Origin: Marine group II euryarchaeote REDSEA-S11_B3N4
Lineage (GTDB): Archaea > Thermoplasmatota > Poseidoniia > Poseidoniales > Thalassarchaeaceae
Length of the DNA stretch: 64,000 bases
Direction of reading: 5' to 3'
NCBI GenBank assembly: GCA_001628485.1
Contig: LURR01000006.1
Location: 26,879-90,878, forward strand
In this document: positions 10,333 through 64,000 of the stretch, one piece after another
Layout of the letters: each line of letters begins with the position of its first letter
How positions within the stretch are numbered: the stretch's first letter is position 1
The notes under the pieces: generated by a model
Database searches by the model: none
What the model saw: the letters and a program-made list of their open reading frames with translations, nothing else
Told to the model about the DNA's origin: nothing
Translations under genes and position numbers: made by a program

Positions 10333-10956
10333 GTGAACCACAACGAGGCTGCAGACAGTATTCGGTCATGGTTGGACAGTGAGAGGCTGGAGGCAAGAGA
10401 GGTGAAAGACCCTCAGGCCATAATCCACCTTCATGTTAGATACCCCCCAACTAAGCAAGGCCATCTGTTCAATATTGTAATTCCCAAGAAGAGAAATTTG
10501 GTATTGTTATATTCCATTACAAGAGTAGATGAGGGACAGCAGGAGTCAATGCGTGAAATGGCTAAAGAAGACTCAGAGTCATGGGAGGAATGGCTACACG
10601 ATACTAGAATCAGAATGACATCTTCTGACTTAGATTGGGTCCTCCATGTTGGGAGAAACAAGCAAGGAGTCGCAGGCCCACTCCAGGCCTTCAATCTCTC
10701 TAGGCCAGTTTGGCTGGATGGACTTACTCAGAATGAATTTATGCAGAGTATGAGAAGAGTTTGGCTAACCAAGCTATCACTGATTCACCAAATAAAGTAC
10801 GGCTTTGGAAACGGGAAGGGGAAACCAGGCCCAGTGGATGATTGGGAAGGGAAGACAGACAGAAAATCTCCTCAATCTCCTACTAGACATTCAGAGATTG
10901 ATACTGACGAGACAGGCGGGTTTGGGAAGGATTTTGACCCACTGGAATGGGCCTAG
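10333..10956 (+). CDS. Hypothetical cytoplasmic protein (possibly YbjN/DUF2299-like)
   Basis: A 207-aa ORF with a GTG start. It has no TM segment and an acidic/Gly-rich tail. The family assignment is only a weak impression. Confidence 0.4.
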   Translation: MNHNEAADSIRSWLDSERLEAREVKDPQAIIHLHVRYPPTKQGHLFNIVIPKKRNLVLLYSITRVDEGQQESMREMAKEDSESWEEWLHDTRIRMTSSDLDWVLHVGRNKQGVAGPLQAFNLSRPVWLDGLTQNEFMQSMRRVWLTKLSLIHQIKYGFGNGKGKPGPVDDWEGKTDRKSPQSPTRHSEIDTDETGGFGKDFDPLEWA

Positions 10957-11023
10957 TTCGTCATCTCGGTTAAGTGACCATAATGGGTATAGGTTAAGTA
11001 TTCGAGAAAGTCGAATAAAGGCG

Positions 11024-34123: not shown

Positions 34124-34238
34124 AAATCCCAGATGATACATCGGGGCTGCTGTGATACCCAAACCACCGTACCGTGCCATCCATTGATAAGCATACAGAA
34201 TCGGGCCGTCACTTGCCCGAGGGTAAGCAGTGATTTTC

Positions 34239-37200: not shown

Positions 37201-40200
37201 CAGTATGGGACAGAGGAGTACTAGGTCAGGCCTTGCTATTCCCAGAGTACTACGATGTGGATAACGATAACGACGGAGTTCCGGACGGAGAAGACCCAGA
37301 CGACGATAATAACGGCCTGCTAGACGAGGCTCAGGAGGCATTCGAAGGATGCTTCACAGGGGAGGAACAGAGCCCATGGGACCACGACAACGATGGGATA
37401 GTTAACTGGGCAGATGACGACTGGGACGGCGACGGAATTCCAAATTCCCTAGAGCTCCAGAACCTCAACGATACCAACGGGACAGCAGACCCTATTGACG
37501 ACACCTGCTGCCTCAACTTCCCCATAGCCCCATGGGACCACGACAACGACGGGATAAGGGACGATATAGACGAGGACGATGATTACGACGGCATGAAGGA
37601 CGAGGACGAAGTGATGCTATGGCCTTCGCGATACGGTACCGAATCAACGAATCCATGGGACCACGACGACTTCGGAGGGGGGGTCGGCCTGGCCAACCCC
37701 AACAACAACTCCACAGGCCCGGATTACTTCGATGTAGACGACGACAACGATGGAAGGGCGGACTTGGACTGGAACAGCCCCTCTTCGGGGGATTGGGCCA
37801 CACCATCAAACAAGATTGAGGAATCTTCAGGATGGAGCTCTGACTGGGACTCTGACAACGACGGGATTCTAGACGACGACGATAAGATACCGACTAGGAT
37901 CACTCTGACCGCTCCATCCGTATTGTGGCTAGACGAAAATCGGCCAGCGATATTCAATGGCTCCGTATTTTGGCTGGACGACACAGGTTTCGTACCGGCA
38001 CCAGACCTCCCTGTCCAGGTCCACATTAGGTACTCTGCGAACGGCACATCCGTCATAGAGACAATCGACGTCCTCACTGATGACAACGGGGAGTATATCG
38101 TCGGCCAGTTCTTGTTCCCGGAAGACATCGATGTAGGGCCTAACTCAACCTATGAGGTCTACTCAGAGGTCACCGAGATGTTCGTTCACGATTACAGCTC
38201 GACGCTCTCTGACACTGACGGAGACGGCATCGGAGACTCGGGGATGCCTGTCGAGGTAAGGGCGAACACCACGATTGGATTCGTATCCGGGGAGAGGTTC
38301 AGATCGGACGAGCAACCCCTCAAGCTGGACTTCAAGGTCCACTACTCGGCAGACTACAACAGAGGGATTTTCGACAACAGACTGCCCTATGCGCCAGTTT
38401 CCTTCACGATTAGCGACCCAGGCCCCCAGTTCGGGAACATCACCCATCCGACTGTCTACGATGGATACGGGAACGGATACAGGGCTGACGCAGGAGGCTG
38501 GGTTTCACTGGCTTACAACCAATCCCTGGATGTGTGGGAACAGGTCCAGTGGAACTCACTGCTGGATAATGGCCCGGGCGTCCCGACAGGCGGATATGAG
38601 GAGATAGTGTGGAATCCGTGCGGACCGCTCAATCCAGTGGGTTCCCATTCTGTCATAGCGCCCTATGAGTACAAGAATACCTCGCTCCCTGTTGGGGATT
38701 ATACCTTCATCGGATTCTCACGTCCTGATCTGGGAGGATGCACTGACGACTCCTACGAATGGCCTTGGTCCCACCTCGAGGGTTCGGAGACGGACGCCTT
38801 CTACATCCGTTCCATGCACAGGATGTTCATCGAGGCCGAGATGTCAGCAGCCTCCTTCAGACCAGTCTACTTCTGGGACTCTACCCAGTTCACAGGCTCG
38901 TCCTTCGGTGCATGGAGGGCTCTCTTCCATGCTCCATCCCTTGCAAATGCGAACATGACGTATCAGGAGGCAAGTCTTGGCAAGCCATACCCGCTTCTAT
39001 GGGACGGGACTCCCACCGGGCTCTCTGGAATAGCAGCCGGCGCCCTCGTCCCGTTCCTGTCCTCTGATGGGATAAACTGGACCATAACGATGCAGAATGC
39101 GGCTGACTTCGACTCGCCTCCATGCGGACCGGTCGACCCACTCGATCCCAGCAGCCAGATTCGCTGCGAGATAGTACCGGAGATATTCGCAGGTGAGTCC
39201 GTCAGGGTAAGGGGGCACGTCTGGAACAAGACAATGGTGCCCGTCACTGACTTCGACGGCGATGGAACGAAGGACCCCATAGCCGTACAGATAGACTTGG
39301 ACTACAATGGGATCTTCGCTGGATCCATAGAGACTCGAGTGAACCAGCGACTGGACATCGATACAGAGGGCCTGGCAACATTCGACCACGACATAATCTG
39401 GGACCCATATTGGCCAGCATCGACATACGGCTTCAGAGCCGACTTCGGCCAGGCCGACTACTTCTTCACCGGAGAGCAAGCAGGAGTCCTAGCGGCCACC
39501 GGCGCGTACGGAAATGTATCGGTCATAGGTTCAACTGACTTCCTACTAACATCTCTGACGCGCCTCTACAGGGGCCAGAACGCGACGGTCGAGGCCCGTC
39601 TGATTGACAACGCCGGGCTTCCTGTACGTGAAGCCCCAGTGAACTGGTCATGGGCCGAAGACCAATCGAGCGGCGTGGTTTTCACCGACAACAACGGGAT
39701 ATTCAGGGTCAATCTGACAGACATTGACACCTTGGGGAACTTCTCGCTCAGTTTCACCTACCTCGGAGACAAGTTCAGGCTGGGAAGCACGGACTCAGTA
39801 GACATGTGGGTCGTTTCACGGACGTTCATCAACGTCCAGAGCACGAGTCCAAACATCAGATCCAACGGAGATCTGTGGGAATTCACTGCTGTTGTCACCG
39901 ATGATAATAGAACTCCATTCGATAAGGATGGAGGCCAGGTTCTGAATAGCTGCGAGGGAGAGATGCAGGATCCTGAGGGATACGACCTGGGAGGCAACGT
40001 TACAGTAATCTTCGAGGGAATAGACTTCGAGGACAGGACCCACCGACAGATAGTCTCCGTCGAGTGCCCGGCATCCGGCTCCATCGGCTATGGACAATAC
40101 CTGGACCCACAGCTGCTGAAGGACGACCCATTCTCCTTCCTTCCCGATGGTTTCGGACCTGTGAACGTGATCCTACGGTTCGAGGAGAACCTGCCTCACG

Positions 40201-42149
40201 AGGGTTGCGAACCCATAGACGCAGGGATGCTGTCCACATCCGGAGCATGGGACCCCTGTGTGACCATCCTCAACAGTGATCACTTCAGGAAGGTACTGCA
40301 GTTCCAAGTAGATGGGTTCAGCCTCATCGGGAACACGGATCTGCAAGTTGACCAGCAGATAGTCTACACCTCTGAGATAGACCTGGATACGGGAGAGATA
40401 CTTGAGAAGCCAATGATAGTGACCGGACAGTTAACCGATGAGCTCGGAGGAAACCTGTCAAACAGACAAATCCGAGTCACATTCGAGATGGGATCTATGG
40501 TATTCGACCCTGTCGAGAATCGGATGAAATTCCGTGCAGGAGATGACGGCATAGAGGCCTGTATCCCGGGTGCGACCGATGAAAACGGATTCTTCGACAT
40601 CAACTGCCCTATGACCGGCGTCGACGCAGGAATGGCCAAGGTGAAGATAGAGTACAATGCCTGGGACCCGCTAAACAATGACAGATACAGATACAAGAAC
40701 AAGACACAAGCAATGTTCTTCCCCGTCTTCTCCAACTCTACGATCGACGTATCGGAAGTAGGTCCGTTCAGGTCAGATTACCTGACATACACCTTCCCGA
40801 ACGGCTCAACCTTCGAAGTTCTGTACCTGAAGGAGGCATTCCACATCAATGCCAAGCTCTCCCAGTCAAACGGAAAGCCAGTCGGTGGGAAGTGCGTCAA
40901 CATTTACCTAGATCCAGAAGTAAACACCAGGCCAATAGCCACAGCATTCACGGCTGGTGGAACCGGTGAGTTCGTTTGGTACTCGGCAGATCCAGATGAC
41001 AACCCTAGTAGGAGGGGAGTTGAGCCTAGCGGAAACAACCTCGAAGGGTTCCGTACTGTCAGAGTTGCTTACGAGCCAGAACGGTACGTACCAGGGGGCT
41101 GCGACTACGAAGTACTGGAACCAAACCCAGTTCTGAATAGCTCCGTAGTAGACGTCGAAGTCCTAGTGAGAAGCAAGGTTGACATTCTGCTGAAGCAGCA
41201 CTGGTCAAGCCCAGCTGGATACCAAGAGGGAGATATTATCGCTGGGGAGGTTGCAATCCTCAGAGACAGGCTGGATCTCACCGTTGAGGGACAGAGAGTA
41301 GAATTCCACCGACAGTTCTGGAATGAATCCGGTGAGTGGCAGACAGAGCGCGTGGAGATACTTATCACCAATGAGAGGGGCTCTGCGAACTTCTCCTTCC
41401 CATACACCGGTGAAACCATTCCCGGACACCCGGAGTGGAGCGCCCCAGGGGGCAAATGGAGGGTCCTGGTTCACTTCGAATCAGTAGACGCGAACAAACC
41501 CTACTTCGTAGAGAAGTGGCTCAATAGCACCCCGGAGATAAAACTTGGAGAGGGCACCTCTTCGACTTCGGGCGGCCTCTGGACTACCCAGGTACTAATC
41601 CTCGCCGGAATATCACTCTCAACAGTGGCGCTGGTGGGTGCGATGATGTACAACAACTACAGGGAGAGACGAAAGGTCGAGGTCCTCCGAGGCATACTGA
41701 CCGACGCGCTAATGTCCCTCAAAGCCTCGAACAATTACATCGAGGCAATCTTCTCCTGCTACAAGGACCTCATCAAGTACTTCAGGATGAGAGGCGCCAT
41801 GAAGAAGGTCTTCGAGACCACCAGAGAGTTCGAAGACGTCATCAACAAAATGCTCGGAGGAATAGTACCCCCAGAGGAGATCGACTCCTTCTTCTCGATA
41901 TTCGAGGAGGCTCGCTATTCTGATCACGAAATAGGATCGGAGGAGAGAGACAGGGCGATACAGATATTCCAGTCGATGATTGGTAGGATGAACAGATCTC
42001 TCGGAGATAGCTTGCTTACAAGGGAAGCAGTCGGCGAGTCCTCGTTGTACGGTCCCTCAGTGAAGGCAGGGCAGTTCGTCGATGCAGATGGAAACATTAG
42101 GTTCGCCGGAGTAGATGATGCAGAGGAAAACGACGGCTTCAAAATCTGA
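34239..42149 (+). CDS. Giant (2,636 aa) acidic membrane-anchored surface protein: N-terminal signal/anchor, about 1,100 aa of thrombospondin-type-3-like Ca-binding repeats, a beta-rich region, a single C-terminal TM helix and a cytoplasmic DUF4129-like tail
   Basis: N-terminus 'KKIIPAFSMIAIMLLSPQISLLL'. Dozens of 'D-x-D-[ND]-DG-[IV]-x-D' loops, for example 'DDDNDGINDL' and 'PWDHDNDGIRDD'. TM 'VLILAGISLSTVALVGAMMY'. The tail is '...TTREFEDVINKML...FFSIFEEARYSDHEIGSEERDRAI'. Confidence 0.85.
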   Translation: MNVQLKRKTQKKIIPAFSMIAIMLLSPQISLLLNTDDSPEQDSRVEPPKRTAYQQLEQFGGSVQDGNQNPPSMMSQFQTAAYQDPFYNDPAALYGKVSDPSALALDPMYGFFLEETNTDDHDNDGIDDLNDLDDDNDGINDLIERFDGCFGTDPLDHDNDGVRDEFDWDDDNDGILEGPIDYSQGNDPWNVTSDRHVEPTTIHPWTGQAVGFNYLVDQNPMDHDNDGITDEDIDGSGRGSYDEDDDNDGRIDQFVWPCDFDSDGMQDYFDDDDDNDGVADISDIHPWDPLQNSSIETAPGILWDSWVRWDPEDYGEYVDGLDYVALHALEHPREQAFTEIVDGDLDGDGIPNFLDPDNDNDGAPDSSDTDDDNDGLADMYDVDDDNDGIPDSCRQLDTNGDGQGDYPSQAFNGAVVAIQVPGTDCEIDYDGDLDDDRFRAIDADYDMVWDWIDPDMGGTTNPDNLQGGSQPWDLDDDGIPNEEDPYPMNSTAEVATWDCASVANPNPQDPSDNCVLWRTSYTGFNDWDGDGLNNWVDMDDDNDGILDWLDIDPDCDLDNDADLHELNGSMFRDDGANDIDTDVDGDGLQNDEDWDDDNDGINDFFDPDDGNCGVVDIDNTDNFWGNSWPQGDGDAIDGSEDGDAYVAVPNYYWNLTWGFNPFNTNNSFMLDYNGYDPNNFDNPSGIIPEMYWTLMMKWSPYNGDNFFDIDSDGDSLVNGIDVDQDGDGMPDWWDQDEGNDGVLDVDDVKMGGTLDGNSCGTVILSATTERFCGHIYAFLYKAPLLTPTQSGGQSFTVPYSSRPDSEWDDGAYDGTNHPTGMGSCDSNCFWFTFDPTSNPTPSVAYTYNDIKNNRDLWIAYLGVTVFGFFQWTSDANNNFFPDEIADDLDDDVDPDVDCGQPMPEVSWTPSCMYNNTNDLDDDWDIVYDHFDVDDDNDGIWDYFEIDSNDDLDDDSGIEEPYYFTGSNCEDNDDDGLDTDPDDDGIYQAVWDRGVLGQALLFPEYYDVDNDNDGVPDGEDPDDDNNGLLDEAQEAFEGCFTGEEQSPWDHDNDGIVNWADDDWDGDGIPNSLELQNLNDTNGTADPIDDTCCLNFPIAPWDHDNDGIRDDIDEDDDYDGMKDEDEVMLWPSRYGTESTNPWDHDDFGGGVGLANPNNNSTGPDYFDVDDDNDGRADLDWNSPSSGDWATPSNKIEESSGWSSDWDSDNDGILDDDDKIPTRITLTAPSVLWLDENRPAIFNGSVFWLDDTGFVPAPDLPVQVHIRYSANGTSVIETIDVLTDDNGEYIVGQFLFPEDIDVGPNSTYEVYSEVTEMFVHDYSSTLSDTDGDGIGDSGMPVEVRANTTIGFVSGERFRSDEQPLKLDFKVHYSADYNRGIFDNRLPYAPVSFTISDPGPQFGNITHPTVYDGYGNGYRADAGGWVSLAYNQSLDVWEQVQWNSLLDNGPGVPTGGYEEIVWNPCGPLNPVGSHSVIAPYEYKNTSLPVGDYTFIGFSRPDLGGCTDDSYEWPWSHLEGSETDAFYIRSMHRMFIEAEMSAASFRPVYFWDSTQFTGSSFGAWRALFHAPSLANANMTYQEASLGKPYPLLWDGTPTGLSGIAAGALVPFLSSDGINWTITMQNAADFDSPPCGPVDPLDPSSQIRCEIVPEIFAGESVRVRGHVWNKTMVPVTDFDGDGTKDPIAVQIDLDYNGIFAGSIETRVNQRLDIDTEGLATFDHDIIWDPYWPASTYGFRADFGQADYFFTGEQAGVLAATGAYGNVSVIGSTDFLLTSLTRLYRGQNATVEARLIDNAGLPVREAPVNWSWAEDQSSGVVFTDNNGIFRVNLTDIDTLGNFSLSFTYLGDKFRLGSTDSVDMWVVSRTFINVQSTSPNIRSNGDLWEFTAVVTDDNRTPFDKDGGQVLNSCEGEMQDPEGYDLGGNVTVIFEGIDFEDRTHRQIVSVECPASGSIGYGQYLDPQLLKDDPFSFLPDGFGPVNVILRFEENLPHEGCEPIDAGMLSTSGAWDPCVTILNSDHFRKVLQFQVDGFSLIGNTDLQVDQQIVYTSEIDLDTGEILEKPMIVTGQLTDELGGNLSNRQIRVTFEMGSMVFDPVENRMKFRAGDDGIEACIPGATDENGFFDINCPMTGVDAGMAKVKIEYNAWDPLNNDRYRYKNKTQAMFFPVFSNSTIDVSEVGPFRSDYLTYTFPNGSTFEVLYLKEAFHINAKLSQSNGKPVGGKCVNIYLDPEVNTRPIATAFTAGGTGEFVWYSADPDDNPSRRGVEPSGNNLEGFRTVRVAYEPERYVPGGCDYEVLEPNPVLNSSVVDVEVLVRSKVDILLKQHWSSPAGYQEGDIIAGEVAILRDRLDLTVEGQRVEFHRQFWNESGEWQTERVEILITNERGSANFSFPYTGETIPGHPEWSAPGGKWRVLVHFESVDANKPYFVEKWLNSTPEIKLGEGTSSTSGGLWTTQVLILAGISLSTVALVGAMMYNNYRERRKVEVLRGILTDALMSLKASNNYIEAIFSCYKDLIKYFRMRGAMKKVFETTREFEDVINKMLGGIVPPEEIDSFFSIFEEARYSDHEIGSEERDRAIQIFQSMIGRMNRSLGDSLLTREAVGESSLYGPSVKAGQFVDADGNIRFAGVDDAEENDGFKI
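34590..37890 (+). repeat. In-frame array of short degenerate acidic repeats (coding for DxDxDG calcium-binding loops)
   Basis: Recurrent nucleotide words such as gatgacgacaa[ct]ga[ct]gg encode DDDNDG. The spacing is irregular (about 10-40 codons), so this is not a perfect tandem repeat. Confidence 0.8.
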
Positions 42150-43929: not shown

Positions 43930-46041
43930 ATGGGTTCTACGCATTCGGACGAGGGAACCTCCGAGGCCCGGGTTGACTGGCTAGCAGAGCAGTTAGAGAG
44001 GCACTCAGACCTCTACTACAACAAAGCGGAACCTGAGATATCAGATGCAGATTTCGATGCATTGAGAGACGAGCTGCAGCTCCTGTCCCCCAATCACCCC
44101 CAACTGAGCAGGGTGGGCTCAGATCCACCTCCAGGCTCTGAAAAGGTCGACCACCTATTCAGGATGATGAGCCTGGACAAGGCCAATTCGGACGAAGAGG
44201 TATCTCACTTCGTTTCCGAGACCACCGCCAATGGCCGGCGGTTCGTTTGCCAACCGAAGCTCGATGGCTCAGCCCTCTCATTGGAATATCGTCGAGGCCG
44301 ACTAATCAGAGCCGCCACCAGGGGCAATGGCAGGAGGGGCGAGGACGTGACGGCGAACGCGAGAAGGATGATGAACGTCCCGGAGAAACTCGGATGGGAC
44401 GGAGACTGTCACGTGAGGGGGGAGGTCGTAATGCCTCTGCAAGTATTCAGAGAGAAGTACTCAGAGGTTGCGCCCAATCCAAGGAATCTAGCCGCAGGAG
44501 CACTTAGGCAGAAGTATGCCGATGCAGGCAAGGGAAGCCCGAGAGACTTGCAGTTCCTTGCCTACGGTGTCGAGTTCCCAAGCGATAAGGACCGCCACCC
44601 AGACAGTCCTGAGCCCCCAGAATTCAAGCTCGACTCGGAGATAATCTCCTGGATAGGCGAGATGGGGATTCAGGTGGCAGGAAACCACGTGGTTTCAGGT
44701 GACGACGACACCACCACCACAGAATCCATACTGGCAGTGACGAGGGAGTGGCTCGAGTCGAGAGACTCTGCAGACTGGGAAATAGATGGAGTCGTGATCA
44801 AACTAGACCGGCTGGATAAGCGCGGCCTCCTGGGCGAGACCGCACATCACCCTCGGTGGGCACTGGCATGGAAATTCCCTGCCGAGGAGGCGGTAACGGT
44901 GCTGATGGACGTCTTCTGGCAGACCGGGAGGACGGGCAACGTCACCCCGGTTTCGCGTGTAGCACCAGTGGTAGTTTCAGGGGTTACCGTTGAGAATACG
45001 ACACTCCACAACAAGGGCGAGGTTGAGCGACTCGGGATAATGATCGGAGACAAGGTGAGAGTAGTCAGAAGAGGGGACGTAATACCAAAAATCACTGAGG
45101 TAATTGGACCGGCCCATGATAGCGACCTCATTGGCAGGTCCCATTCAGATGGGACCCCTTTCTCAGAACCACTACCTTCCAGGCGCGAGATACCAGTTCC
45201 CGAGGGATGCCCAAGGTGTTCCACTGACCTAATTATCGATGGGGCATTCATCAGATGTACCAACATAGACTGCCCATCAAGACTGGAGAGAGCAATACTG
45301 TACTGGTGCAGGAAGCTGGGTATGGATGGGATAGGCGAGAAGCTCGCAGAGCAGCTTTGCTCATCGGGGCTGGTCACGAGTTTGGGGGACCTATATCGGT
45401 TGGAGGACAGGGAGCAGGAGCTAATCTCACTAGAGAGAATGGCCGAGAAGTCAGCCAGCAACGTCCTAGAGGAATTGAACTCCACCAGGGCCATGACCTT
45501 CAGCACCTTCATCTCAGCACTTGGACTGCCTAGGATCGGTCCCGAGATAGCAACTCTCGTCTGTGCGGAGGTGAAGACTCTCGAAGAGCTGATACAAATG
45601 ACCGAAGAAAGGCAGACGGCCATCCAGAGACTTGTTTCCATAGACAGGGTAGGAGAGACCGTGGCCAACCTTCTGCTGGACGGTATATCCGATAGGAAGG
45701 AGTCGATTATCGACCTCTATGGGCAGGTGGAAATCGTCGAAGGAGAGCAGGTATCCGTCGATGGCCCCCTTTCCGGCTCTTCCTTCTGCATTACAGGCAC
45801 TCTGAGCAGACCAAGGAAGGAGATCGCTCTTTCGATAAAGTCAGAGGGAGGCAAAGTCGTCTCGTCCGTCTCGGGGAACCTGAACTTCCTAGTCGCAGGA
45901 GAGTCATCTGGATCAAAGTTCGACAAGGCCAACAGGCTTGGCGTCCGGATCATATCGGAATCAGAGTTGGACGAGATGCTAGGGGGGTCAATACTAGAGG
46001 AGCTGCCCGAAGAGAGGCAGTCTACGCTCGGCGAGTTCTGA
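43930..46041 (+). CDS. ligA: NAD+-dependent DNA ligase (LigA type)
   Basis: Adenylation motif 'CQPKLDGSALSLEYRRGRLIRAATRGNGRRGEDVT', OB fold, zinc finger 'CPRCSTDLIIDGAFIRCTNIDCPSR', HhH repeats, and a BRCT-like 'FCITGTLSRPRKEI...GGKV..SVSGNLNFLVAGE'. Confidence 0.9.
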   Translation: MGSTHSDEGTSEARVDWLAEQLERHSDLYYNKAEPEISDADFDALRDELQLLSPNHPQLSRVGSDPPPGSEKVDHLFRMMSLDKANSDEEVSHFVSETTANGRRFVCQPKLDGSALSLEYRRGRLIRAATRGNGRRGEDVTANARRMMNVPEKLGWDGDCHVRGEVVMPLQVFREKYSEVAPNPRNLAAGALRQKYADAGKGSPRDLQFLAYGVEFPSDKDRHPDSPEPPEFKLDSEIISWIGEMGIQVAGNHVVSGDDDTTTTESILAVTREWLESRDSADWEIDGVVIKLDRLDKRGLLGETAHHPRWALAWKFPAEEAVTVLMDVFWQTGRTGNVTPVSRVAPVVVSGVTVENTTLHNKGEVERLGIMIGDKVRVVRRGDVIPKITEVIGPAHDSDLIGRSHSDGTPFSEPLPSRREIPVPEGCPRCSTDLIIDGAFIRCTNIDCPSRLERAILYWCRKLGMDGIGEKLAEQLCSSGLVTSLGDLYRLEDREQELISLERMAEKSASNVLEELNSTRAMTFSTFISALGLPRIGPEIATLVCAEVKTLEELIQMTEERQTAIQRLVSIDRVGETVANLLLDGISDRKESIIDLYGQVEIVEGEQVSVDGPLSGSSFCITGTLSRPRKEIALSIKSEGGKVVSSVSGNLNFLVAGESSGSKFDKANRLGVRIISESELDEMLGGSILEELPEERQSTLGEF

Positions 46042-58143: not shown

Positions 58144-58331
58144 AACCAGCCGCACAGAGACAGCAACTTCATTGTCTCGGAAGGACAATCTCAAAACCAA
58201 GAAATCTATTGGCAAAAAAACCTCGTTTTTCAGCCACTAGGGGTGTTTTTTTGGGCTTACTTATAAAGATAATAATCAACAATCTCTATATGTAAAAGGT
58301 ATTTCGCGGGGGCACGGATAGTGTGAACACT

Positions 58332-61300
58332 ATGTACAACAAGAAAATGATAGCAATGATGCTTACCCTGAGCATGCTAGCGGCTAGTCTCGCTGGATGC
58401 GCAGGGGGGGACGACGACGATACGTCAGACTGGGCCATTTCGATGGCCAGCGACGTTGAGGTAGTCTGGGTGGAGTCCGGATGGGACCCCATTATCCCCA
58501 ACCTGAATGCCGGCGAGATGTGCGACGTAATCATCTCGGCGATGACCAAGACGGATGAGCGCGACCAGGTAGTCGACTTCACCAGGGCTTACTACACCAG
58601 TAGCCAGGGTGTGATCGGCGGATCCGGTGCAGCGTCCATCACAGCGGTGGCTGACCTCAACGCAGCAGGTACGACCATCGGTGTCCAGTCGGGGACAACT
58701 TCGGACCTGTACGCCAACGAGAACCTCGGTATGGCGACAATCAGTGCCTTCGAGGACTTCCCATCGGTCATCACCGCTCTGAACAACGGAGACGTCATGT
58801 ACGCAATGGGCGATGCACCCGTTCTGTCCCTAGAAGGAACCCTGATGGTGACCTTCTCAGACGAGAACTTCGGGTTCGCAGTCCGCGAGGACTCTGGGGA
58901 ACTCCTAGACGCCCTCAACATGGCCATCGGCGCTGTAGTCGACTCAGGCGAGTACGACACAATCTACGGGGCCTCCTTCGACGGAGCAGTCACACTGGCA
59001 GACGATACCACCGCTGACACGGCAACCGCTTACCCGGCCTCGCCCAGCGAGGGTTCCACTCTGACCGGAGTTCTGGAGTCCGGGCAGCTGAAGGTCTGCA
59101 CAGACCCGTTCTACCCTCCATTCGAGAGCTACGACGCTGACAACAACGTCGTCGGCTTCGATGCAGACATGGCACACGCGGTAGTCGACGAGATTGCAGC
59201 TCACTACATGGGAACCGCGAACCCTGTGTTCGTGGCTCCAGTTGAGGCAACTACAATCAAGATCGGGTTCCTGAACGACGCTACAGGACCAATATCACAG
59301 TTTGCAGGCGCATTCACTTTTGCTTGGAATGCTGCTAAGGATGACTTGAATGCTATGGGAGACGACTACGTCTTCGAGGTAGTAGAGGCAGACTCTGGAT
59401 GCGATGGACAAATGGCCGCGACTGCGGCACAATCGTTAGTTGACGCTGGAGTGGTTGGTGTAGCCGGAGCAGCATGCTCTGGAGCATCAATAGGCGCCAA
59501 TGCAGTCCTATCTGCAGCAGGCATACCAATGATCTCGTATGCGAGTACATCGCCTTCGCTATCTAGCGACGAAAACTACCCTCACTTCTACAGGATAGTA
59601 CCAAGCGATGCATACCAGGCAGGAGTAATGTCCGAAATGGTCTCAGCAGACGGTCACACAAATCCAGCGATAATCCACATGGTTAACGCTTATGGAGCAG
59701 GTCTAGCCGATGCTTTCATCGCTAACTGGGATGGAGATGTCTGCCTGCAGGCAGGTTATGATGAGCAAGTCCAAGTGGACTTCCAAGCACAGGTTCAATC
59801 TGTAATCGATGCAGGATGTGACTCAGTTGTTCTGGGATCATACTCGGCAGACGGCGCTCTAATCGTCGAGACCATGGCAGGAATGGGAGCCGTGCTCCCT
59901 ACCTACAGTGCCGACGGAATGGCAGGCGAGAACGCGCTGGCCGATTACACCGCACCAGCAGCTGCAAACGGACTCCAGGTCACCAGACCTGCATCTGATC
60001 CCGCAAGCGCTGCTCCTGGTGGAGAATTCGCCGCCGCTTGTGCAGCCGCCGAAGCCTGCTCTGGCGGAATTTACCAGAACGAGGCGTACGATACGGTCAT
60101 GATGCTGGGTCACGCTGCAATGATGGAAGATGGAGCGAACATGGCCAACCATATCGAAATGGTTGGCAACGGCTATCAGGGAGAGAGTGGTACTCACACT
60201 TTCGAGGCTAACGGAGAAGTGCCGGGTCTGTACTACGATGTGTGTACCTTCCACCACGTCCCAACATACGGTGAGTACTTCAACTGCGACAGAGGCTGGA
60301 ACGCTGAACAAGGCATCCACGATGTTACGTGGGCCGGTGCTACAGTCAAGATTGGCTTCTTGAATGACGCTACAGGACCGATTGCGGTTTACGCTGGCGG
60401 ATTCGTAGCAGCTTCACAGATAGCTCTGGGACTAGCAAACACAATCGGATACAGCAATGGTGTACAGTTCGAAATCGTATATGCTGACTCCGGTTGCGAC
60501 GGTACAATGGGCGCAACGGCGGCCCAGACACTAGTCGATGCTGGAGCTTGGGGAGTAGTAGGAGCCGCATGCTCTGGGGCTTCTCAGGGTGCAAACGCCA
60601 TCTTGGCAGCCGCAAATATCCCTCAGGTTTCCTATGCTAGCACAAGCCCGACGCTTGAGAGTGACGAGAACTACCCTGGGTTCTTCAGAGTGGTACCCAG
60701 TGACGCTTACCAAGGATCAGTTATGGCAGAGGTAGTCGCCGGTGACGGTTACACGAATGTTGCTGTATTCCACATGGTTAATGCGTACGGGGCAGGACTA
60801 GCAGATACTTTTGTGCAGACAATCGGATCAGAGAATGTTTGCACACAGGTGGGCTATGACGAGCAGACCCAGGTTGACCACAGCGCCATGGTACAGTCAG
60901 CAATAGACAACAACTGTGACTCTGTGTTCATGGTTTCCTACGCTGCTGATGGAGCAGCTATTATCGAGGAACTAGAAACTCAGGGATTCTCAGGCCAGAT
61001 TTATGGTGGAGACGGAATAGCCGAAGAGGGACTTGGTTCTGGAATGGCAGACAACAGTACACTGTCTGGAATCATTGCCTCGAAACCCCACAACCCCAAC
61101 CCAATGGGCACCGTCGGAATGCTGTTCGCCTCTCTGTGCAATGCTAATCCAGCTTGCGCTGACGGAATCTACACTGCAGAAGCCTTTGATGCGGTTACAA
61201 TCGTAGCTTTCGCTGCGTTCACCGCATTGGCTACTCCTAACCTAACAGCCGAACTCGCTGTCATGGGGACTGGACAGGGATGGAACGGAGCAAGTGGGAC

Positions 61301-61457
61301 AATCTCATTCCTGACGAATGGAGATATTATCCCTGCAGGATTCTGCATCGGAGAGTTCTCGGTGACAACCGACGCAACGGATGGAGTCAATACTGTCTCC
61401 TACGATTGCGCTAGGTACTGGGACCCAGAAAACGGTATCACCACCGCTACCGCTTGA
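58332..61457 (+). CDS. Lipoprotein fusing three solute-binding modules: one polar-amino-acid (SBP family 3) domain and two tandem Leu/Ile/Val-binding-protein (type 1 PBP) domains
   Basis: Lipobox 'LSMLAASLAGCAGG'. The SBP_3 body is 'DVIISAMTKTDERDQVVDFTRAYY', with 'LKVCTDPFYPPFESYDADNNVVGFDADMA' downstream. There are two LIVBP copies, beginning 'IKIGFLNDATGPI' and 'VKIGFLNDATGPI', each with 'ADSGCDG', 'GAACSGAS', 'SYASTSP' and 'FRVVPSDAYQ'. Confidence 0.8.
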   Translation: MYNKKMIAMMLTLSMLAASLAGCAGGDDDDTSDWAISMASDVEVVWVESGWDPIIPNLNAGEMCDVIISAMTKTDERDQVVDFTRAYYTSSQGVIGGSGAASITAVADLNAAGTTIGVQSGTTSDLYANENLGMATISAFEDFPSVITALNNGDVMYAMGDAPVLSLEGTLMVTFSDENFGFAVREDSGELLDALNMAIGAVVDSGEYDTIYGASFDGAVTLADDTTADTATAYPASPSEGSTLTGVLESGQLKVCTDPFYPPFESYDADNNVVGFDADMAHAVVDEIAAHYMGTANPVFVAPVEATTIKIGFLNDATGPISQFAGAFTFAWNAAKDDLNAMGDDYVFEVVEADSGCDGQMAATAAQSLVDAGVVGVAGAACSGASIGANAVLSAAGIPMISYASTSPSLSSDENYPHFYRIVPSDAYQAGVMSEMVSADGHTNPAIIHMVNAYGAGLADAFIANWDGDVCLQAGYDEQVQVDFQAQVQSVIDAGCDSVVLGSYSADGALIVETMAGMGAVLPTYSADGMAGENALADYTAPAAANGLQVTRPASDPASAAPGGEFAAACAAAEACSGGIYQNEAYDTVMMLGHAAMMEDGANMANHIEMVGNGYQGESGTHTFEANGEVPGLYYDVCTFHHVPTYGEYFNCDRGWNAEQGIHDVTWAGATVKIGFLNDATGPIAVYAGGFVAASQIALGLANTIGYSNGVQFEIVYADSGCDGTMGATAAQTLVDAGAWGVVGAACSGASQGANAILAAANIPQVSYASTSPTLESDENYPGFFRVVPSDAYQGSVMAEVVAGDGYTNVAVFHMVNAYGAGLADTFVQTIGSENVCTQVGYDEQTQVDHSAMVQSAIDNNCDSVFMVSYAADGAAIIEELETQGFSGQIYGGDGIAEEGLGSGMADNSTLSGIIASKPHNPNPMGTVGMLFASLCNANPACADGIYTAEAFDAVTIVAFAAFTALATPNLTAELAVMGTGQGWNGASGTISFLTNGDIIPAGFCIGEFSVTTDATDGVNTVSYDCARYWDPENGITTATA

Positions 61458-61469
61458 TGGAAACGTAAA

Positions 61470-61503
61470 GCAGTACGGCGGGCACTACTGCCCGCCGTAC
61501 TGC
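61470..61503 (+). terminator. Perfect 15-bp stem / 4-nt loop hairpin between the binding-protein and permease genes (attenuator/terminator or RNA-stability element)
   Basis: gcagtacggcgggca-ctac-tgcccgccgtactgc starts 13 nt after the stop codon. It is followed by A/T-rich sequence but not by a clean T-tract. Confidence 0.5.
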
Positions 61504-61546
61504 CCCAACAATTAATTTCAATCGGGCATTAGGGGCTTTGTACCCT

Positions 61547-64000
61547 ATGTTCGACAGAGTGAGAAACCTATATTCTGACCTCTCAAGAGGCAACAGAAGA
61601 CTCTTAATCGCACTTCTCCTGTTTATTGATGCTAATTTTCTTGGCACTCTAAATGGATACGGAACTCTGAATTTACTAGACCGGTTAATCGGAGATGGGT
61701 TGCCAGATGATTTGGTCTGGCTTCTACAAATACTAGAGTCAATATCTGCCGGTTTCATTGTTGTGAAGGTACTATTCGACGATATTCCTAGCGGTGCTTC
61801 AAGAACTCTAGGAATCATCCTATCACCAATTTTCATGGTAATAGTGACGTTCTTTTCTCTGGATCTACTACTGAAGGGGCAGGATTCCAGCGCCTCATTC
61901 ACCCTTGACTTAGTTTCGATTTCCACTGGTACTCTCACGTGGTCATCAACATACTTGGCTATCGCTATTGGATTAACGCTGACCTACAAGGTTCAGAGAT
62001 ACGGTAATTTCGCCCAATCTGAATTATTCATGATTGGGATGTATCTGTCGATGATTATGATTTGGAGTGACTTTCTATTCCCTATGTCAAACCTACAGTC
62101 TTCCAAGGACGGTGTGATTACATGGTCAGTACTAATTTTCACCTTAATAGCAGCATTTGTTCTAACCGGAACTGCTGGGATAATTATAGACAGGTTGGTT
62201 TACAAAGATTTCAGAGAGAAGAAGGCAAGCCCCCAAGTTATGATGATAGCATCTCTGGGAGTTGCTCTAATCCTACGATCTTTGACATTTCTAAGATTCG
62301 GCAACGGGAGGAACCTATTCGAGCCCGAGGGTGACTGGAGAATGCCAACTCAAAGGTGGGAACTTCCAACCACAAAGATGCGCCTGAATCTTGGAGAGAG
62401 AAGTCTAGATGAAGGACGTACATACACTCAATTTAGTTGTGAAGAAACTCTCCATGCCGAAACAGGTGAGCCTACCCTGACCAGGATAATTAGCGAGACC
62501 TCGAAACCGGCAATTGAGATATATGATACAACTGCTGATTGCATAACTCAGGCCACCACGAACTACGCGTATCACAAAGGTGCGGTCCCATTCGTCATTT
62601 TTTCCTCCGTTCTACTACTGATGCTTCTGTTGAACAAAACCAGACTGGGAAGGAGAATGAGAGCAGTCGCTGACAATCCAGATTTGGCCGCAAGTAGTGG
62701 TATCAACGTCGAAGGAGTCCATCTAACTAGTGCCTTCCTATCCGCGGGGATTTCTGGGATGGGCGGTGCAATTTTCGCAATGACTCTTAGATTCAACCCA
62801 GAAACCGCATTTGCTCTTCTACTACCCTCATTCGCAATTATCGTTTTAGGCACGATTGGCTCTATTCCAGGTGCGATCGTTGGCTCTTTGGTGGTAGGTT
62901 TTGTTCGCTCACTCTCCACTCCAGTATTGATTGGCGTAGGCCTTCCTCTCGGTCGCTCAAATTATACAGCTTTGGATGGAGTAATGCCGTACATTTTCTT
63001 AATTGCAATCCTACTGATTATGCCCCAGGGAATCGGTGAAGCATACGAGAAATGGAAAATTGAAAGACTTCGAAAAAGGAGATTAGATCCAACCAATGAT
63101 TCCGATAAAACAACATTAGCTCTCGCTATACTCCCTACAGGTATCCTCGGATTGCATCATTGGAGGGCGAATAGGATGCACAAGGTCCAATCCTTCACAG
63201 CGATAGCCTTCTCAGCATACATATTTTCCAAACTCAGCCATTTTATAGGTAACAATTCTTTTGCAAAAGGGGCTTGTTCAGACGTCTGTGAATCAAACTC
63301 TTTTGCGGAAACAAACCTAGCCACAATAACTGGGAGAAACGATGGAACACTGACACTTCAAGATTCTCCGATTGACGAAACAATTCTACTAAGCCAAATT
63401 GATCCCCCAGAGGGCCTTTCTCCTTTTGAGATTGAACAATGGACAGCCGATGCCCTATCCGCAGCAAACAATTCCTGGCTCAATATGATGAATATAGAGA
63501 TTGAACTGGTAAATCTGATAGTTAATCTCGGAGAATTTGTCTGGCCATTGGTCCCTCTGCTCCTTTGGGTATACGCAATTTCAGAGGTCGTACCCAATAG
63601 GAATCTTGGCTTGAGGTACAGAGCTCCGAAATTTGGAAAGTACAAACATAAAATTTCTGCTTTAGTTTCTACTAGGTCTCACACACTCAAAGAAGAATGG
63701 ACAAAATTCGATGAGTGGCATAAAAATACAATTTCCTCTTTCCAGGGAAAATTATCTGAAACCATTTCAAAAAATAAAGAAACAATTTCTGATATTGTAA
63801 AAGGTATTCTACACAAGATTGTAGCTTTATTCCCAGGAGACCCCGAAAAGCATAGACAGGATATCGATTTGTATGGTAGGGAGAGTAAATCAGGTTCGAT
63901 GCTATTCTTCTTCACTTTGATTATTGTATTAATCCTATTCTTGATATGGCTGCCAATAGCGGAATCCGATAATTATAGATTCAAGAAAGTCCTACAGGTA
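61547..64000 (+). CDS. Branched-chain amino acid ABC permease (LivH family) with an N-terminal extension, a large internal insertion and a long C-terminal continuation (possible LivH-LivM fusion); partial, as it runs off the window
   Basis: My own translation from ATG 61547 gives an open frame of 818 codons to the window end; the ORF track lists only closed ORFs. LivH signatures 'YLAIAIGLTLTYKVQRYGNFAQSELFMIGMY', 'TRLGRRMRAVADNPDLAASSGINV' and 'LGTIGSIPGAIVGSLVVG'. Confidence 0.7.
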   Translation, partial: MFDRVRNLYSDLSRGNRRLLIALLLFIDANFLGTLNGYGTLNLLDRLIGDGLPDDLVWLLQILESISAGFIVVKVLFDDIPSGASRTLGIILSPIFMVIVTFFSLDLLLKGQDSSASFTLDLVSISTGTLTWSSTYLAIAIGLTLTYKVQRYGNFAQSELFMIGMYLSMIMIWSDFLFPMSNLQSSKDGVITWSVLIFTLIAAFVLTGTAGIIIDRLVYKDFREKKASPQVMMIASLGVALILRSLTFLRFGNGRNLFEPEGDWRMPTQRWELPTTKMRLNLGERSLDEGRTYTQFSCEETLHAETGEPTLTRIISETSKPAIEIYDTTADCITQATTNYAYHKGAVPFVIFSSVLLLMLLLNKTRLGRRMRAVADNPDLAASSGINVEGVHLTSAFLSAGISGMGGAIFAMTLRFNPETAFALLLPSFAIIVLGTIGSIPGAIVGSLVVGFVRSLSTPVLIGVGLPLGRSNYTALDGVMPYIFLIAILLIMPQGIGEAYEKWKIERLRKRRLDPTNDSDKTTLALAILPTGILGLHHWRANRMHKVQSFTAIAFSAYIFSKLSHFIGNNSFAKGACSDVCESNSFAETNLATITGRNDGTLTLQDSPIDETILLSQIDPPEGLSPFEIEQWTADALSAANNSWLNMMNIEIELVNLIVNLGEFVWPLVPLLLWVYAISEVVPNRNLGLRYRAPKFGKYKHKISALVSTRSHTLKEEWTKFDEWHKNTISSFQGKLSETISKNKETISDIVKGILHKIVALFPGDPEKHRQDIDLYGRESKSGSMLFFFTLIIVLILFLIWLPIAESDNYRFKKVLQV

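What the first reader, a model, noticed from the sequence alone, without database searches (positions are those of the whole stretch)
58332..61457. Triple solute-binding lipoprotein: SBP family-3 domain plus two tandem LIVBP domains in one 1,041-aa chain
ABC binding proteins are normally single-domain, about 250-400 aa. Here one lipobox-bearing ORF contains a polar-amino-acid-type domain followed by two full LIVBP-type domains. The two LIVBP domains are clear paralogues with a period of 1,089 nt: 'atcaagatcgggttcctgaacgacgctacaggacc' at 59257 versus 'gtcaagattggcttcttgaatgacgctacaggacc' at 60346. The protein blocks ADSGCDG, GAACSGAS, SYASTSP, NYP.F[YF]R[IV]VPSDAYQ and HMVNAYGAGLAD are shared. 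Such a tethered multi-receptor could widen substrate range or raise local receptor concentration for a single transporter at a cell surface that lacks a periplasm.
Basis: seen in the sequence. Interest (0 to 1): 0.65.

Follow-up and report, generated by a model that had tools for sequence, protein, structure and literature searches.

The report
Three-module archaeal amino-acid binding lipoprotein
A marine group II archaeon makes one abundant, membrane-anchored 1,041-residue protein built from three amino-acid-binding modules (a circularly permuted polar-amino-acid binder plus two duplicated LivJ-like binders), encoded just ahead of a Liv-type ABC importer; the fusion is real and conserved across the lineage, but what it binds has not been tested.

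Summary
ORF 58332-61457 (+) encodes a 1,041-aa protein with a signal peptide and lipobox (Cys23), one SBP_bac_3 module and two LIVBP modules that are 48% identical (E 8e-96).

It is not an assembly artefact. Independent DNA assemblies and metatranscriptome contigs cross both junctions without indels. The same full-length architecture occurs in 79 GTDB species representatives. Every record title that names a lineage says MGII/Poseidoniales, often Thalassarchaeaceae.

A fused LivH-LivM permease, LivG and LivF follow the gene, so it is the receptor of a HAAT-type amino-acid importer.

Its canonical N-terminal beta1-alpha1 element now sits at the module's C-terminal end. A Cys64/Cys256 pair, invariant in all 205 sequences of this order, probably forms a disulfide that holds it in place.

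Relatives in marine archaea carry two other rotations of the same fold as single-domain proteins. Both representatives whose contigs I examined lie beside PAAT-type importers.

Ligand-contact residues are invariant in all three modules, and the permuted module is the most conserved. Ligands, and the transporter served by the permuted module, remain unknown.

Verdict: a new variant of a known kind, of moderate to high interest.

The parts
58287..58297 (+). Candidate archaeal TATA-like element (TATATGTAAAA), about 23 nt upstream of where the RNA contigs begin (58314)
   Evidence: Sequence read. RNA contig X18 starts at 58314. The promoter assignment is an inference, not a test.
58332..58400 (+). 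Signal peptide with lipobox LAGC. Cys23 is the predicted lipid-anchored first residue of the mature protein.
   Evidence: A21, G22 and C23 are invariant in 25 homologues, and C23 in 54 orthologues. This is the only strongly hydrophobic 19-residue window in the chain.
58443..58982 (+). Permuted SBP_bac_3 module, segments B-C-D (aa 38-217). They are the rest of lobe 1 up to hinge 1, then lobe 2, then the C-terminal helices. They correspond to residues 62-243 of canonical family-3 binding proteins.
   Evidence: phmmer against PDB, Pfam and NCBIfam, AF2, Foldseek with about 170 columns at RMSD 2.2-2.6 A to closed amino-acid binding proteins.
58983..59048 (+). Thr/Asp/Ala-rich linker (aa 218-239) joining the old C-terminus to the old N-terminus. 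It is conserved in all three permuted forms of this subfamily.
   Evidence: Low pLDDT at 217-230. The same L.DD.TA.TAT.YP motif is seen in P0159, P0173 and P0135.
59049..59219 (+). Segment A (aa 240-296): the canonical N-terminal beta1-alpha1 element of family-3 binding proteins, relocated to the C-terminal end of the module. It contains Cys256.
   Evidence: It aligns to template residues 13-61, which abut the 62-243 match of the core. pLDDT is 83-96 in the module-only AF2 model with pTM 0.77. C64/C256 are invariant in 205 sequences of this order and are replaced by Tyr/Phe plus Gly in the other orders.
59250..60326 (+). LIVBP module 1 (aa 307-665), a type I Leu/Ile/Val-binding-protein fold
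   Evidence: Pfam, PDB phmmer, AF2 plus Foldseek with TM 0.81-0.87 normalised to LivK/LivJ-type targets, ligand-contact residues conserved.
60339..61457 (+). LIVBP module 2 (aa 670-1041) plus stop codon. It is a paralogue of module 1 (48% identity).
61470..61503 (+). Perfect 15-bp stem with a 4-nt loop between the binding-protein gene and the permease gene. It is a candidate 3' mRNA-stabilising or attenuating hairpin.
   Evidence: The 96-nt window that contains it folds at -42 kcal/mol, z -4.45. RNA contigs end at 61435 and 61682, and none covers the permease. The function is inferred.
61547..64000 (+). Start of the fused LivH-LivM permease gene. It runs off the window and is 1,246 aa in the orthologous locus L001, where LivG and LivF follow.
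   Evidence: Translation, Pfam BPD_transp_2, operon in L001, synteny in about 55 loci.

Best explanation
The gene encodes the extracellular receptor of a Liv-type (HAAT family) amino-acid ABC importer of a marine group II (Poseidoniales, MGIIb-like) archaeon. The receptor is a single lipid-anchored chain with three ligand-binding modules.

Shown:
- A lipobox signal peptide, a circularly permuted family-3 (polar amino acid type) module and two paralogous LivJ-like modules.
- The operon order: binding protein, fused LivH-LivM permease, LivG, LivF.
- Lineage-wide conservation of the architecture, and abundant transcripts of the binding-protein gene.

Inferred:
- After lipidation of Cys23 the protein sits on the outer face of the membrane.
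- Each LIVBP module closes on a free L-amino acid through the conserved Ser79/Ala100/Thr102/Tyr150/Tyr202/Asp226 set (E. coli LivJ numbering) and docks on LivHM to trigger ATP-driven uptake. The tandem therefore gives two tethered receptors per anchor.
- The permuted family-3 module folds as a complete two-lobed binder. Its relocated beta1-alpha1 element is inserted into lobe 1 and probably held by a Cys64-Cys256 disulfide.
- That module keeps the Ser/Thr...Arg77 and Asp161 contacts for the alpha-carboxylate and alpha-amino groups, so it probably binds a polar or basic amino acid.

Most speculative step: where the family-3 module delivers its ligand. My preferred reading is a PAAT-type importer encoded elsewhere, as for its single-domain relatives. 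Less likely, it acts only as a capture or retention site next to LivHM.

The permutation most likely arose from a tandem family-3 array by loss of the first beta1-alpha1 element and of everything after the second one.
For: - Domains and their order. Template residues 13-61 map to aa 219-267 of the mature chain and 62-243 map to aa 20-192.
- Paralogy of the two LIVBP modules.
- Folds: the full-length model has mean pLDDT 76 and matches LivK/LivJ-type structures at TM 0.81-0.87, normalised to target length. The family-3 module alone has pLDDT 85 and pTM 0.77, with the relocated element at pLDDT 83-96. It matches closed amino-acid binding proteins.
- Operon. LivHM-LivG-LivF lie downstream in about 55 orthologous loci.
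- Distribution: 79 loci in GTDB species representatives at 49-96% identity with full coverage, including single-cell genomes and long-read MAGs. More than 100 full-length clusters come from ENA, JGI, NCBI and Logan.
- Selection across 54 orthologues: mean pairwise identity is 77% for the family-3 module, 66% for LIVBP1 and 61% for LIVBP2. The ligand-contact residues examined are invariant in all three modules, or nearly so.
- Cys pattern: 19 Cys, which is the lipobox Cys plus 9 possible pairs, including the known LivJ Cys53-Cys78 pair. C64/C256 covary with Tyr/Phe plus Gly in the other permutation classes.
- Expression: metatranscriptome contigs cover 58314-61435/61682 at word depth 200-726 and none covers the permease. 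PMC9723583 reports livK among the most highly transcribed MGIIb genes.
- Single-domain relatives next to PAAT importers.
Against: - No ligand, binding or transport data exist. The organism is uncultured.
- No PAAT-type permease lies in the window or within 6 kb of any of the 79 orthologous loci.
- My search for such a permease did not place one on the same long MGIIb contigs. The partner of the family-3 module is therefore unidentified.
- The relative arrangement of the three modules is not reliably predicted (full-length pTM 0.48).
- Model coordinates could not be inspected. Packing of the relocated element and the disulfide rest on confidence scores and covariation, not on measured distances.
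- RNA evidence comes from assembled contigs, which show presence but not absence.
- Lipid modification at archaeal lipoboxes is assumed from the motif.
Confidence: 0.7

Rival explanations
1. All three modules feed the one co-encoded LivHM-G-F importer. The family-3 module has been recruited as a third receptor, or as a ligand-retention site, for that transporter.
For: The only transporter genes linked to the fusion in about 55 loci are LivHM, LivG and LivF. The fused permease is unusually large, 1,246 aa with long extra regions that could offer extra docking surfaces. No PAAT permease was found nearby or on the same long contigs.
Against: Family-3 binding proteins are known to dock on PAAT-type (BPD_transp_1) permeases, not on BPD_transp_2 permeases (general knowledge of the families). 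Both examined single-domain relatives of this very module lie beside PAAT importers. No precedent was found in the literature searched.
Confidence: 0.2
2. The family-3 module is mainly a structural stalk or spacer that holds the two LIVBP receptors off the membrane. Its ligand binding is vestigial.
For: It is the membrane-proximal module, directly after the lipid anchor. Its sequence order is rearranged. It lacks a cognate permease in the operon.
Against: It is the most conserved of the three modules, at 77% mean pairwise identity. Every canonical ligand-contact residue examined (Ser69, Thr72, Arg77, Thr122, Thr123, Asp161) is invariant in 54 orthologues. AF2 models it as a closed, complete binding fold. 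A spacer would not need these residues.
Confidence: 0.07
3. The protein is a sensor rather than a transport receptor. It would be an archaeal counterpart of the Venus-flytrap modules of glutamate receptors, signalling amino-acid availability.
For: ANF_receptor scores slightly above Peripla_BP_6. The core motif GAACSGAS...SYASTSP...FRVVPSD matches metabotropic glutamate receptor flytrap domains at E about 1e-14. The combination of a LIVBP-like and a family-3-like module recalls ionotropic glutamate receptors (for plant GLR domain lists).
Against: There is no transmembrane, channel, kinase or other output domain. The signal peptide is the only clearly hydrophobic segment. The gene is the first of a complete ABC importer operon in every locus examined. 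Whole-domain matches are best to bacterial LivJ/LivK-type transport proteins.
Confidence: 0.03

Closest known systems
E. coli LivJ/LivK and other HAAT-family (cluster B, Peripla_BP_6) amino-acid binding proteins with LivHMGF
   Same: Both LIVBP modules have the fold, the Cys53-Cys78 disulfide positions and the main-chain ligand contacts (Ser79, Ala100, Thr102, Tyr150, Tyr202, with an acidic residue at 226). The LivH/LivM/LivG/LivF genes follow.
   Different: Here two copies lie in one chain behind a third, unrelated module. The protein is lipid-anchored rather than free. LivH and LivM are fused. The central motif is closer to eukaryotic ANF/mGluR flytraps than to LivJ.
GlnPQ of Lactococcus lactis and other Gram-positive bacteria (tandem SBD1-SBD2, PDB 6h30)
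   Same: More than one substrate-binding domain is tethered at the surface of a cell without a periplasm. The family-3 module here matches SBD1 and SBD2 best by sequence. The literature treats such tandems as a way to combine specificities and affinities (PMC8025302).
   Different: In GlnPQ the domains are of one class, in canonical order, and fused to the permease. Here two different classes are fused to each other, the family-3 one is permuted, and the chain is a separate lipoprotein (stop at 61457, permease start at 61547).
HisJ/LAO/ArtJ-type polar amino-acid binding proteins (cluster F, SBP_bac_3, PAAT family)
   Same: The two-lobed fold and the alpha-carboxylate/alpha-amino contacts (Ser/Thr...Arg77, Asp161, Thr121-like) are the same. 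The best NCBIfam matches are Lys/Arg/Orn and Arg binders.
   Different: The sequence order is B-C-D-A instead of A-B-C-D. There is a Cys64-Cys256 pair. No PAAT permease is in the operon.
Single-domain permuted family-3 proteins of marine archaea (found here: order C-D-A-B such as P0315, and order D-A-B-C such as P0273)
   Same: They belong to the same subfamily (about 47-58% identity) and share the same conserved D-to-A linker. The names given are Poseidoniales/Poseidoniia, and also Heimdallarchaeota and Hodarchaeales.
   Different: They are cut at the hinge strands rather than in lobe 1. They have a cleaved signal peptide plus a C-terminal hydrophobic RRKN-type anchor instead of a lipobox. 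They have Tyr/Phe plus Gly in place of the Cys pair. The two examined (P0315, P0273) lie beside a PAAT importer.
Extracellular modules of ionotropic and metabotropic glutamate receptors
   Same: A LIVBP-type flytrap and a family-3-type clamshell are combined in one chain. The flytrap signature motif is shared.
   Different: The module order is reversed, and there is no channel or 7TM domain. The context is an ABC importer operon. I make no claim of direct ancestry.

Membership tests
HAAT-family (cluster B, LIVBP/Peripla_BP_6) ABC substrate-binding protein | Sequence match above the curated family threshold | tested here: met
   Peripla_BP_6 scores 192.9 bits against a cut-off of 31.7, in two stretches. 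ANF_receptor scores 197 bits.
HAAT-family (cluster B, LIVBP/Peripla_BP_6) ABC substrate-binding protein | Type I periplasmic-binding-protein fold | tested here: met
   The AF2 model matches LivK/LivJ-type structures 3td9, 4gnr and 4n0q at TM 0.85-0.87, normalised to target length.
HAAT-family (cluster B, LIVBP/Peripla_BP_6) ABC substrate-binding protein | Residues that hold the alpha-amino and alpha-carboxylate groups of the ligand (LivJ Ser79, Ala100, Thr102, Tyr202, Glu226) | tested here: met
   By alignment to 1z15, Ser, Ala, Thr and Tyr are invariant and Asp replaces Glu in both modules across 54 orthologues. The residue list itself comes from my own knowledge of LivJ structures.
HAAT-family (cluster B, LIVBP/Peripla_BP_6) ABC substrate-binding protein | Genetic linkage to LivH/LivM permease and LivG/LivF ATPases | tested here: met
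HAAT-family (cluster B, LIVBP/Peripla_BP_6) ABC substrate-binding protein | Ligand binding and stimulation of transport | not testable with these tools
   This needs protein biochemistry.
PAAT-family (cluster F, SBP_bac_3) ABC substrate-binding protein | Sequence match above the curated family threshold | tested here: met
   SBP_bac_3 scores 89.8 bits against a cut-off of 26.4. It falls below the NCBIfam equivalog and subfamily cut-offs.
PAAT-family (cluster F, SBP_bac_3) ABC substrate-binding protein | Canonical N-to-C order of the fold elements (beta1-alpha1 first) | tested here: not met
   The module is circularly permuted. Template residues 62-243 come first and 13-61 come last. The same order is seen in all 205 sequences of this class.
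PAAT-family (cluster F, SBP_bac_3) ABC substrate-binding protein | Amino-acid contact residues (Ser/Thr-x4-Arg, Thr-Thr of lobe 2, Asp161) | tested here: met
   S69, T72, R77, T122, T123 and D161 are invariant in 54 orthologues. The assignment is by alignment to family-3 structures and my own knowledge of HisJ/LAO.
PAAT-family (cluster F, SBP_bac_3) ABC substrate-binding protein | Linkage to a BPD_transp_1 permease and its ATPase | tested here: not met
   tblastn gave no permease hit in the window or in the 79 orthologous loci. The feature is met for the single-domain relatives P0315 and P0273.
Tandem substrate-binding-domain importers of the GlnPQ type | Two or more binding domains in one polypeptide | tested here: met
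   There are three modules.
Tandem substrate-binding-domain importers of the GlnPQ type | Binding domains covalently fused to the transmembrane domain | tested here: not met
   The stop codon is at 61455-61457, followed by an 89-nt spacer with a hairpin. The permease is a separate ORF from 61547.
Tandem substrate-binding-domain importers of the GlnPQ type | Domains of the same structural class as the cognate permease family | tested here: not met
   A cluster F module is fused to two cluster B modules in a HAAT operon.
Glutamate-receptor-type flytrap receptors (ANF_receptor with channel or 7TM) | Membrane-spanning output domain in the same chain | tested here: not met
   The only hydrophobic 19-residue window that clearly stands out is the signal peptide. 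The others reach at most 1.67 and lie in modelled Ala-rich helices. No such Pfam domain was found.

The most novel reading that the evidence does not exclude
Marine archaea hold a natural series of circular permutations of one amino-acid binding fold. All four rotations A-B-C-D, B-C-D-A, C-D-A-B and D-A-B-C occur as complete, anchored proteins. All derive from one tandem ancestor, as the shared D-to-A linker shows. The B-C-D-A form was welded to a duplicated LivJ-like receptor, giving a single surface protein that serves two different families of ABC importer, HAAT and PAAT, at once. That would be an undescribed way of coupling transport systems. It would also be a ready-made natural experiment on how chain connectivity and hinge cuts affect clamshell dynamics.
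Probability: 0.3. Interest if true: 0.75.

Novelty: new variant of a known kind. Interest (0 to 1): 0.6.

Why it matters
Marine group II archaea are among the most abundant heterotrophs of the surface ocean and remain uncultured. Their 'livK' is repeatedly reported among their most highly transcribed genes and their transport proteins as abundant in metaproteomes (PMC9723583). It has been treated as an ordinary branched-chain amino-acid binding protein.

This work shows it is a three-module receptor whose most conserved part is a permuted polar-amino-acid binder. That changes what substrates one should expect these cells to take up. It also gives concrete constructs for ligand screening.

For protein science, the fusion and its single-domain relatives offer natural circular permutants of a fold that is widely engineered for biosensors. 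Two of the cuts lie in the hinge.

For transporter biology, the protein raises a testable question: can one tethered chain feed two ABC importer families?

Tried and rejected
- **Frameshift or assembly join.** Rejected. Contigs from independent DNA runs and two metatranscriptomes cross both junctions with no indels or joints. The architecture recurs in single-cell genomes and long-read MAGs.
- **Partial family-3 domain plus a fragment of a second one.** Rejected in favour of a complete permuted domain. The two matches abut exactly at template residues 61/62. The module folds confidently as one unit. Cys64/Cys256 covary with Tyr/Phe plus Gly across permutation classes.
- **C-D-A-B and D-A-B-C hits as contig-end fragments of tandem arrays.** This was my first reading. 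Rejected after reading the sequences: they have their own signal peptides and C-terminal anchors, and they recur on many contigs.
- **PAAT permease near the fusion.** None was found in the window or in the 79 loci.
- **Co-occurrence of that permease on the 1.5-Mb MGIIb contigs.** The last homologue search was inconclusive, because only close relatives of the query were listed.
- **Literature.** Searches for a prior description of the fusion or of natural permuted binding proteins found only engineered permutants and GlnPQ-type tandems.
- **Inter-module geometry.** It could not be assessed.
Full report
**Observation**

The + strand carries an ORF from 58323 (GTG) or 58332 (ATG) to 61457. From the ATG it encodes 1,041 aa. 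The N-terminus MYNKKMIAMMLTLSMLAASLAGC is a signal peptide ending in a lipobox, with Cys23 at 58398-58400.

- Pfam gives SBP_bac_3 (89.8 bits), Peripla_BP_6 (192.9 bits, two stretches) and ANF_receptor (197 bits, two stretches).
- NCBIfam gives sub-threshold similarity to Lys/Arg/Orn and Arg binders for the first part, and to the high-affinity branched-chain binder for the rest.
- The two LIVBP copies (aa ~307-665 and ~670-1041) are 48% identical over 370 residues, E 8e-96.
- The DNA repeat with a 1,089-nt period is present, with 30 of 35 bases identical. The quoted strings begin one base earlier than stated.

**Not an artefact**

- Contigs assembled independently from several public marine metagenome runs lie on 58200-61600 at 99% identity or more. 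They show no insertions, deletions or joints. At least one contig (run X2) spans 58338-61600 in one piece.
- Metatranscriptome contigs also cross both junctions.
- A protein search returned more than 700 hits. The best 120 are almost all 1,025-1,070 aa with the same three Pfam families, at 67-96% identity, from ENA, JGI, NCBI and Logan assemblies.
- A scan of one genome per GTDB species found 79 loci at 49-96% identity and essentially full coverage. Every title that names a lineage says Marine Group II, Poseidoniales, Thalassarchaeaceae or Thalassarchaeum.
- These loci include single-cell genomes and long-read MAGs. The closest is REDSEA-S42_B7, at 96% amino-acid identity.
- One NCBI record labels a 76%-identical copy as Marinimicrobia. 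This is probably a binning error.

**Context**

Downstream, from 61547 to the window end, lies a BPD_transp_2 permease. In the orthologous locus L001 the order is:

1. triple binding protein;
2. a 1,246-aa permease with two BPD_transp_2 domains, which is a LivH-LivM fusion;
3. LivG;
4. LivF.

The upstream neighbours there match the window: PAC2, NifU, MoaA-like, Trm1 and PurM-like genes. tblastn finds LivHM, LivG and LivF in that order in about 55 loci that extend far enough. The protein is therefore the receptor of a HAAT-family importer.

Against PDB sequences, residues 20-192 of the mature chain align to residues 62-243 of canonical family-3 binding proteins. Residues 219-267 align to residues 13-61. 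The two pieces abut exactly, but in swapped order.

I name the fold elements as follows:

| Segment | Content | Residues |
|---|---|---|
| A | beta1-alpha1 | aa 240-296 |
| B | rest of lobe 1 up to hinge 1 | aa 38-97 |
| C | lobe 2 | aa 98-186 |
| D | C-terminal helices | aa 187-217 |

The canonical order is A-B-C-D. This module is B-C-D-A, with a Thr/Asp/Ala-rich linker joining D to A.

Modelled alone, the module gives mean pLDDT 85 and pTM 0.77, and segment A has pLDDT 83-96. Foldseek aligns about 170 columns of B-C-D to closed, ligand-bound amino-acid binders at RMSD 2.2-2.6 A.

The chain has 19 cysteines: the lipobox Cys plus nine possible pairs. One pair corresponds to the LivJ Cys53-Cys78 positions in each LIVBP module. 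Cys64 (segment B) and Cys256 (segment A) are the only two in the family-3 module. Both are invariant in all 205 sequences of this order. In the other orders they are replaced together by Tyr/Phe plus Gly. I read this as contact between A and B, probably a disulfide.

**Relatives of the permuted module**

Mapping module HMMs on representatives of 50%-identity clusters, and on hits to one relative, shows several architectures:

- canonical A-B-C-D proteins and tandem A-B-C-D arrays;
- the B-C-D-A form alone, with one LIVBP, or with two;
- C-D-A-B (about 70 sequences);
- D-A-B-C (about 22 sequences).

The last two are complete single-domain proteins with their own signal peptide and a C-terminal hydrophobic anchor ending in RRKN-like residues. 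All share the D-to-A linker motif. Names attached to them include Poseidoniales and Poseidoniia, and for D-A-B-C also Heimdallarchaeota and Hodarchaeales.

One representative of each order was examined in its contig. Each lies next to a PAAT-type importer, made of a 589-619-aa permease with a PSII_BNR domain plus BPD_transp_1, and an ATPase.

The simplest origin is a tandem array from which single-domain-length windows were cut at different points. This is the classical duplication-deletion route to circular permutation.

Tandem LIVBP proteins without the family-3 module also exist (for example P0124, 56% identity). So do forms with the permuted module and one LIVBP (P0123, P0125).

**Are the modules functional?**

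Across 54 orthologues the family-3 module is the most conserved. Mean pairwise identity is 77%, against 66% for LIVBP1 and 61% for LIVBP2. Ser69, Thr72, Arg77, Thr122, Thr123 and Asp161 are invariant. These are the canonical contacts for the alpha-carboxylate and alpha-amino groups.

In both LIVBP modules the LivJ-equivalent Ser79, Ala100, Thr102, Tyr150, Tyr202 and Asp226 are invariant apart from one ambiguous (X) residue at Tyr202 of module 1. Position 18 is Phe/Tyr in module 1 and mostly Tyr in module 2. The two pockets therefore look very similar. The central motif also matches metabotropic glutamate receptor flytraps at E about 1e-14.

No transmembrane segment follows the signal peptide. 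The mature chain is very acidic, with D+E at 12.6% and K+R at 1.4%.

**Expression**

Two metatranscriptome runs hold contigs covering 58314 or 58377 to 61435 or 61682, at word depth 200-726. They hold nothing on the permease. A perfect 15-bp hairpin lies at 61470-61503; the 96-nt window containing it folds at -42 kcal/mol, z -4.45.

This fits an abundant binding-protein mRNA and a much rarer permease message. Contigs do not prove absence, however. [quoted passage not shown] It does not discuss the architecture.

**Mechanism**

Shown:
- the architecture;
- the operon;
- conservation of the architecture and of the pocket residues;
- transcription.

Inferred:
- lipid anchoring at Cys23;
- each LIVBP module captures a free L-amino acid and docks on LivHM;
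- the permuted module is a working binder for a polar or basic amino acid.

Unknown: where the permuted module delivers its ligand. Its relatives serve PAAT importers. No PAAT permease is near the fusion, and my last search could not show one on the same long contigs. The paper above states that MGIIb MAGs also carry aapJ with a full transporter. A PAAT partner elsewhere in the genome is therefore plausible but untested.

**Comparison and novelty**

Multiple tethered binding domains are known, with GlnPQ as the reference case (PMC8025302). There the domains are of one class, in canonical order, and fused to the permease. The fold families here are ordinary.

Three things appear undescribed in the literature I could search:

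- the fusion of a cluster F module to two cluster B modules in one lipoprotein;
- the natural circular permutation of the family-3 fold;
- the series of alternative permutations in marine archaea.

The proteins themselves are already in public databases under generic names. I rate this a new variant of a known kind, with interest 0.6.

Noticed in passing
window 61470-61503: A perfect 15-bp stem with a 4-nt loop lies between the binding-protein stop and the permease start. Metatranscriptome contigs end close to it, and none covers the permease. This suggests a separately abundant binding-protein mRNA.
   Followed up: partly
window 61547-64000 (runs off the end); L001 13179-16919: The permease is a LivH-LivM fusion of 1,246 aa. 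It has a loop insert of about 100 aa in the LivH part and a middle region of about 320 aa, far larger than the separate bacterial subunits.
   Followed up: partly
L081 1073-3978; L083 6001-9625: Single-domain permuted family-3 proteins (orders C-D-A-B and D-A-B-C) lie beside a PAAT permease that carries an N-terminal PSII_BNR (propeller-like) domain, plus an ATPase. These SBP proteins have a C-terminal hydrophobic RRKN-type anchor.
   Followed up: partly
proteins P0150 and P0141 (from the search): Two homologous large surface proteins (1,182 and 878 aa) embed the same family-3 subfamily, once in canonical order and once permuted. Both carry the Cys pair.
   Followed up: no
proteins P0152, P0153, P0163 (from the search): Giant proteins of 2,500-3,900 aa hold 7-10 stretches matching only the conserved LIVBP core (model positions ~70-220). 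Their origin is unknown.
   Followed up: no
window 58401-61454 (mature protein): The composition is extreme: D+E is 12.6% but K+R is only 1.4% of residues.
   Followed up: no
window 43930-46041: A bacterial-type NAD-dependent DNA ligase (adenylation, OB, HhH and BRCT domains) is encoded in an archaeal genome window.
   Followed up: no
window 24263-27919 (-): A class II ribonucleotide reductase of 1,218 aa has its barrel-domain match split into two stretches, plus a TSCPD domain. The extra length might be an insertion such as an intein.
   Followed up: no
window 10805-16273 and 34230-42149: Two giant ORFs (1,822 aa with a CARDB domain; 2,639 aa with a weak Big_1 match) are probably large surface proteins.
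   Followed up: no
protein P0007: A 76%-identical full-length copy is labelled 'Candidatus Marinimicrobia bacterium' in NCBI, while every other record that names a specific lineage is MGII archaeal. This is probably a mis-binned contig.
   Followed up: no
window 62001-64000: G+C drops to 42.5% over the permease gene, against 51-55% over the binding-protein gene.
   Followed up: no
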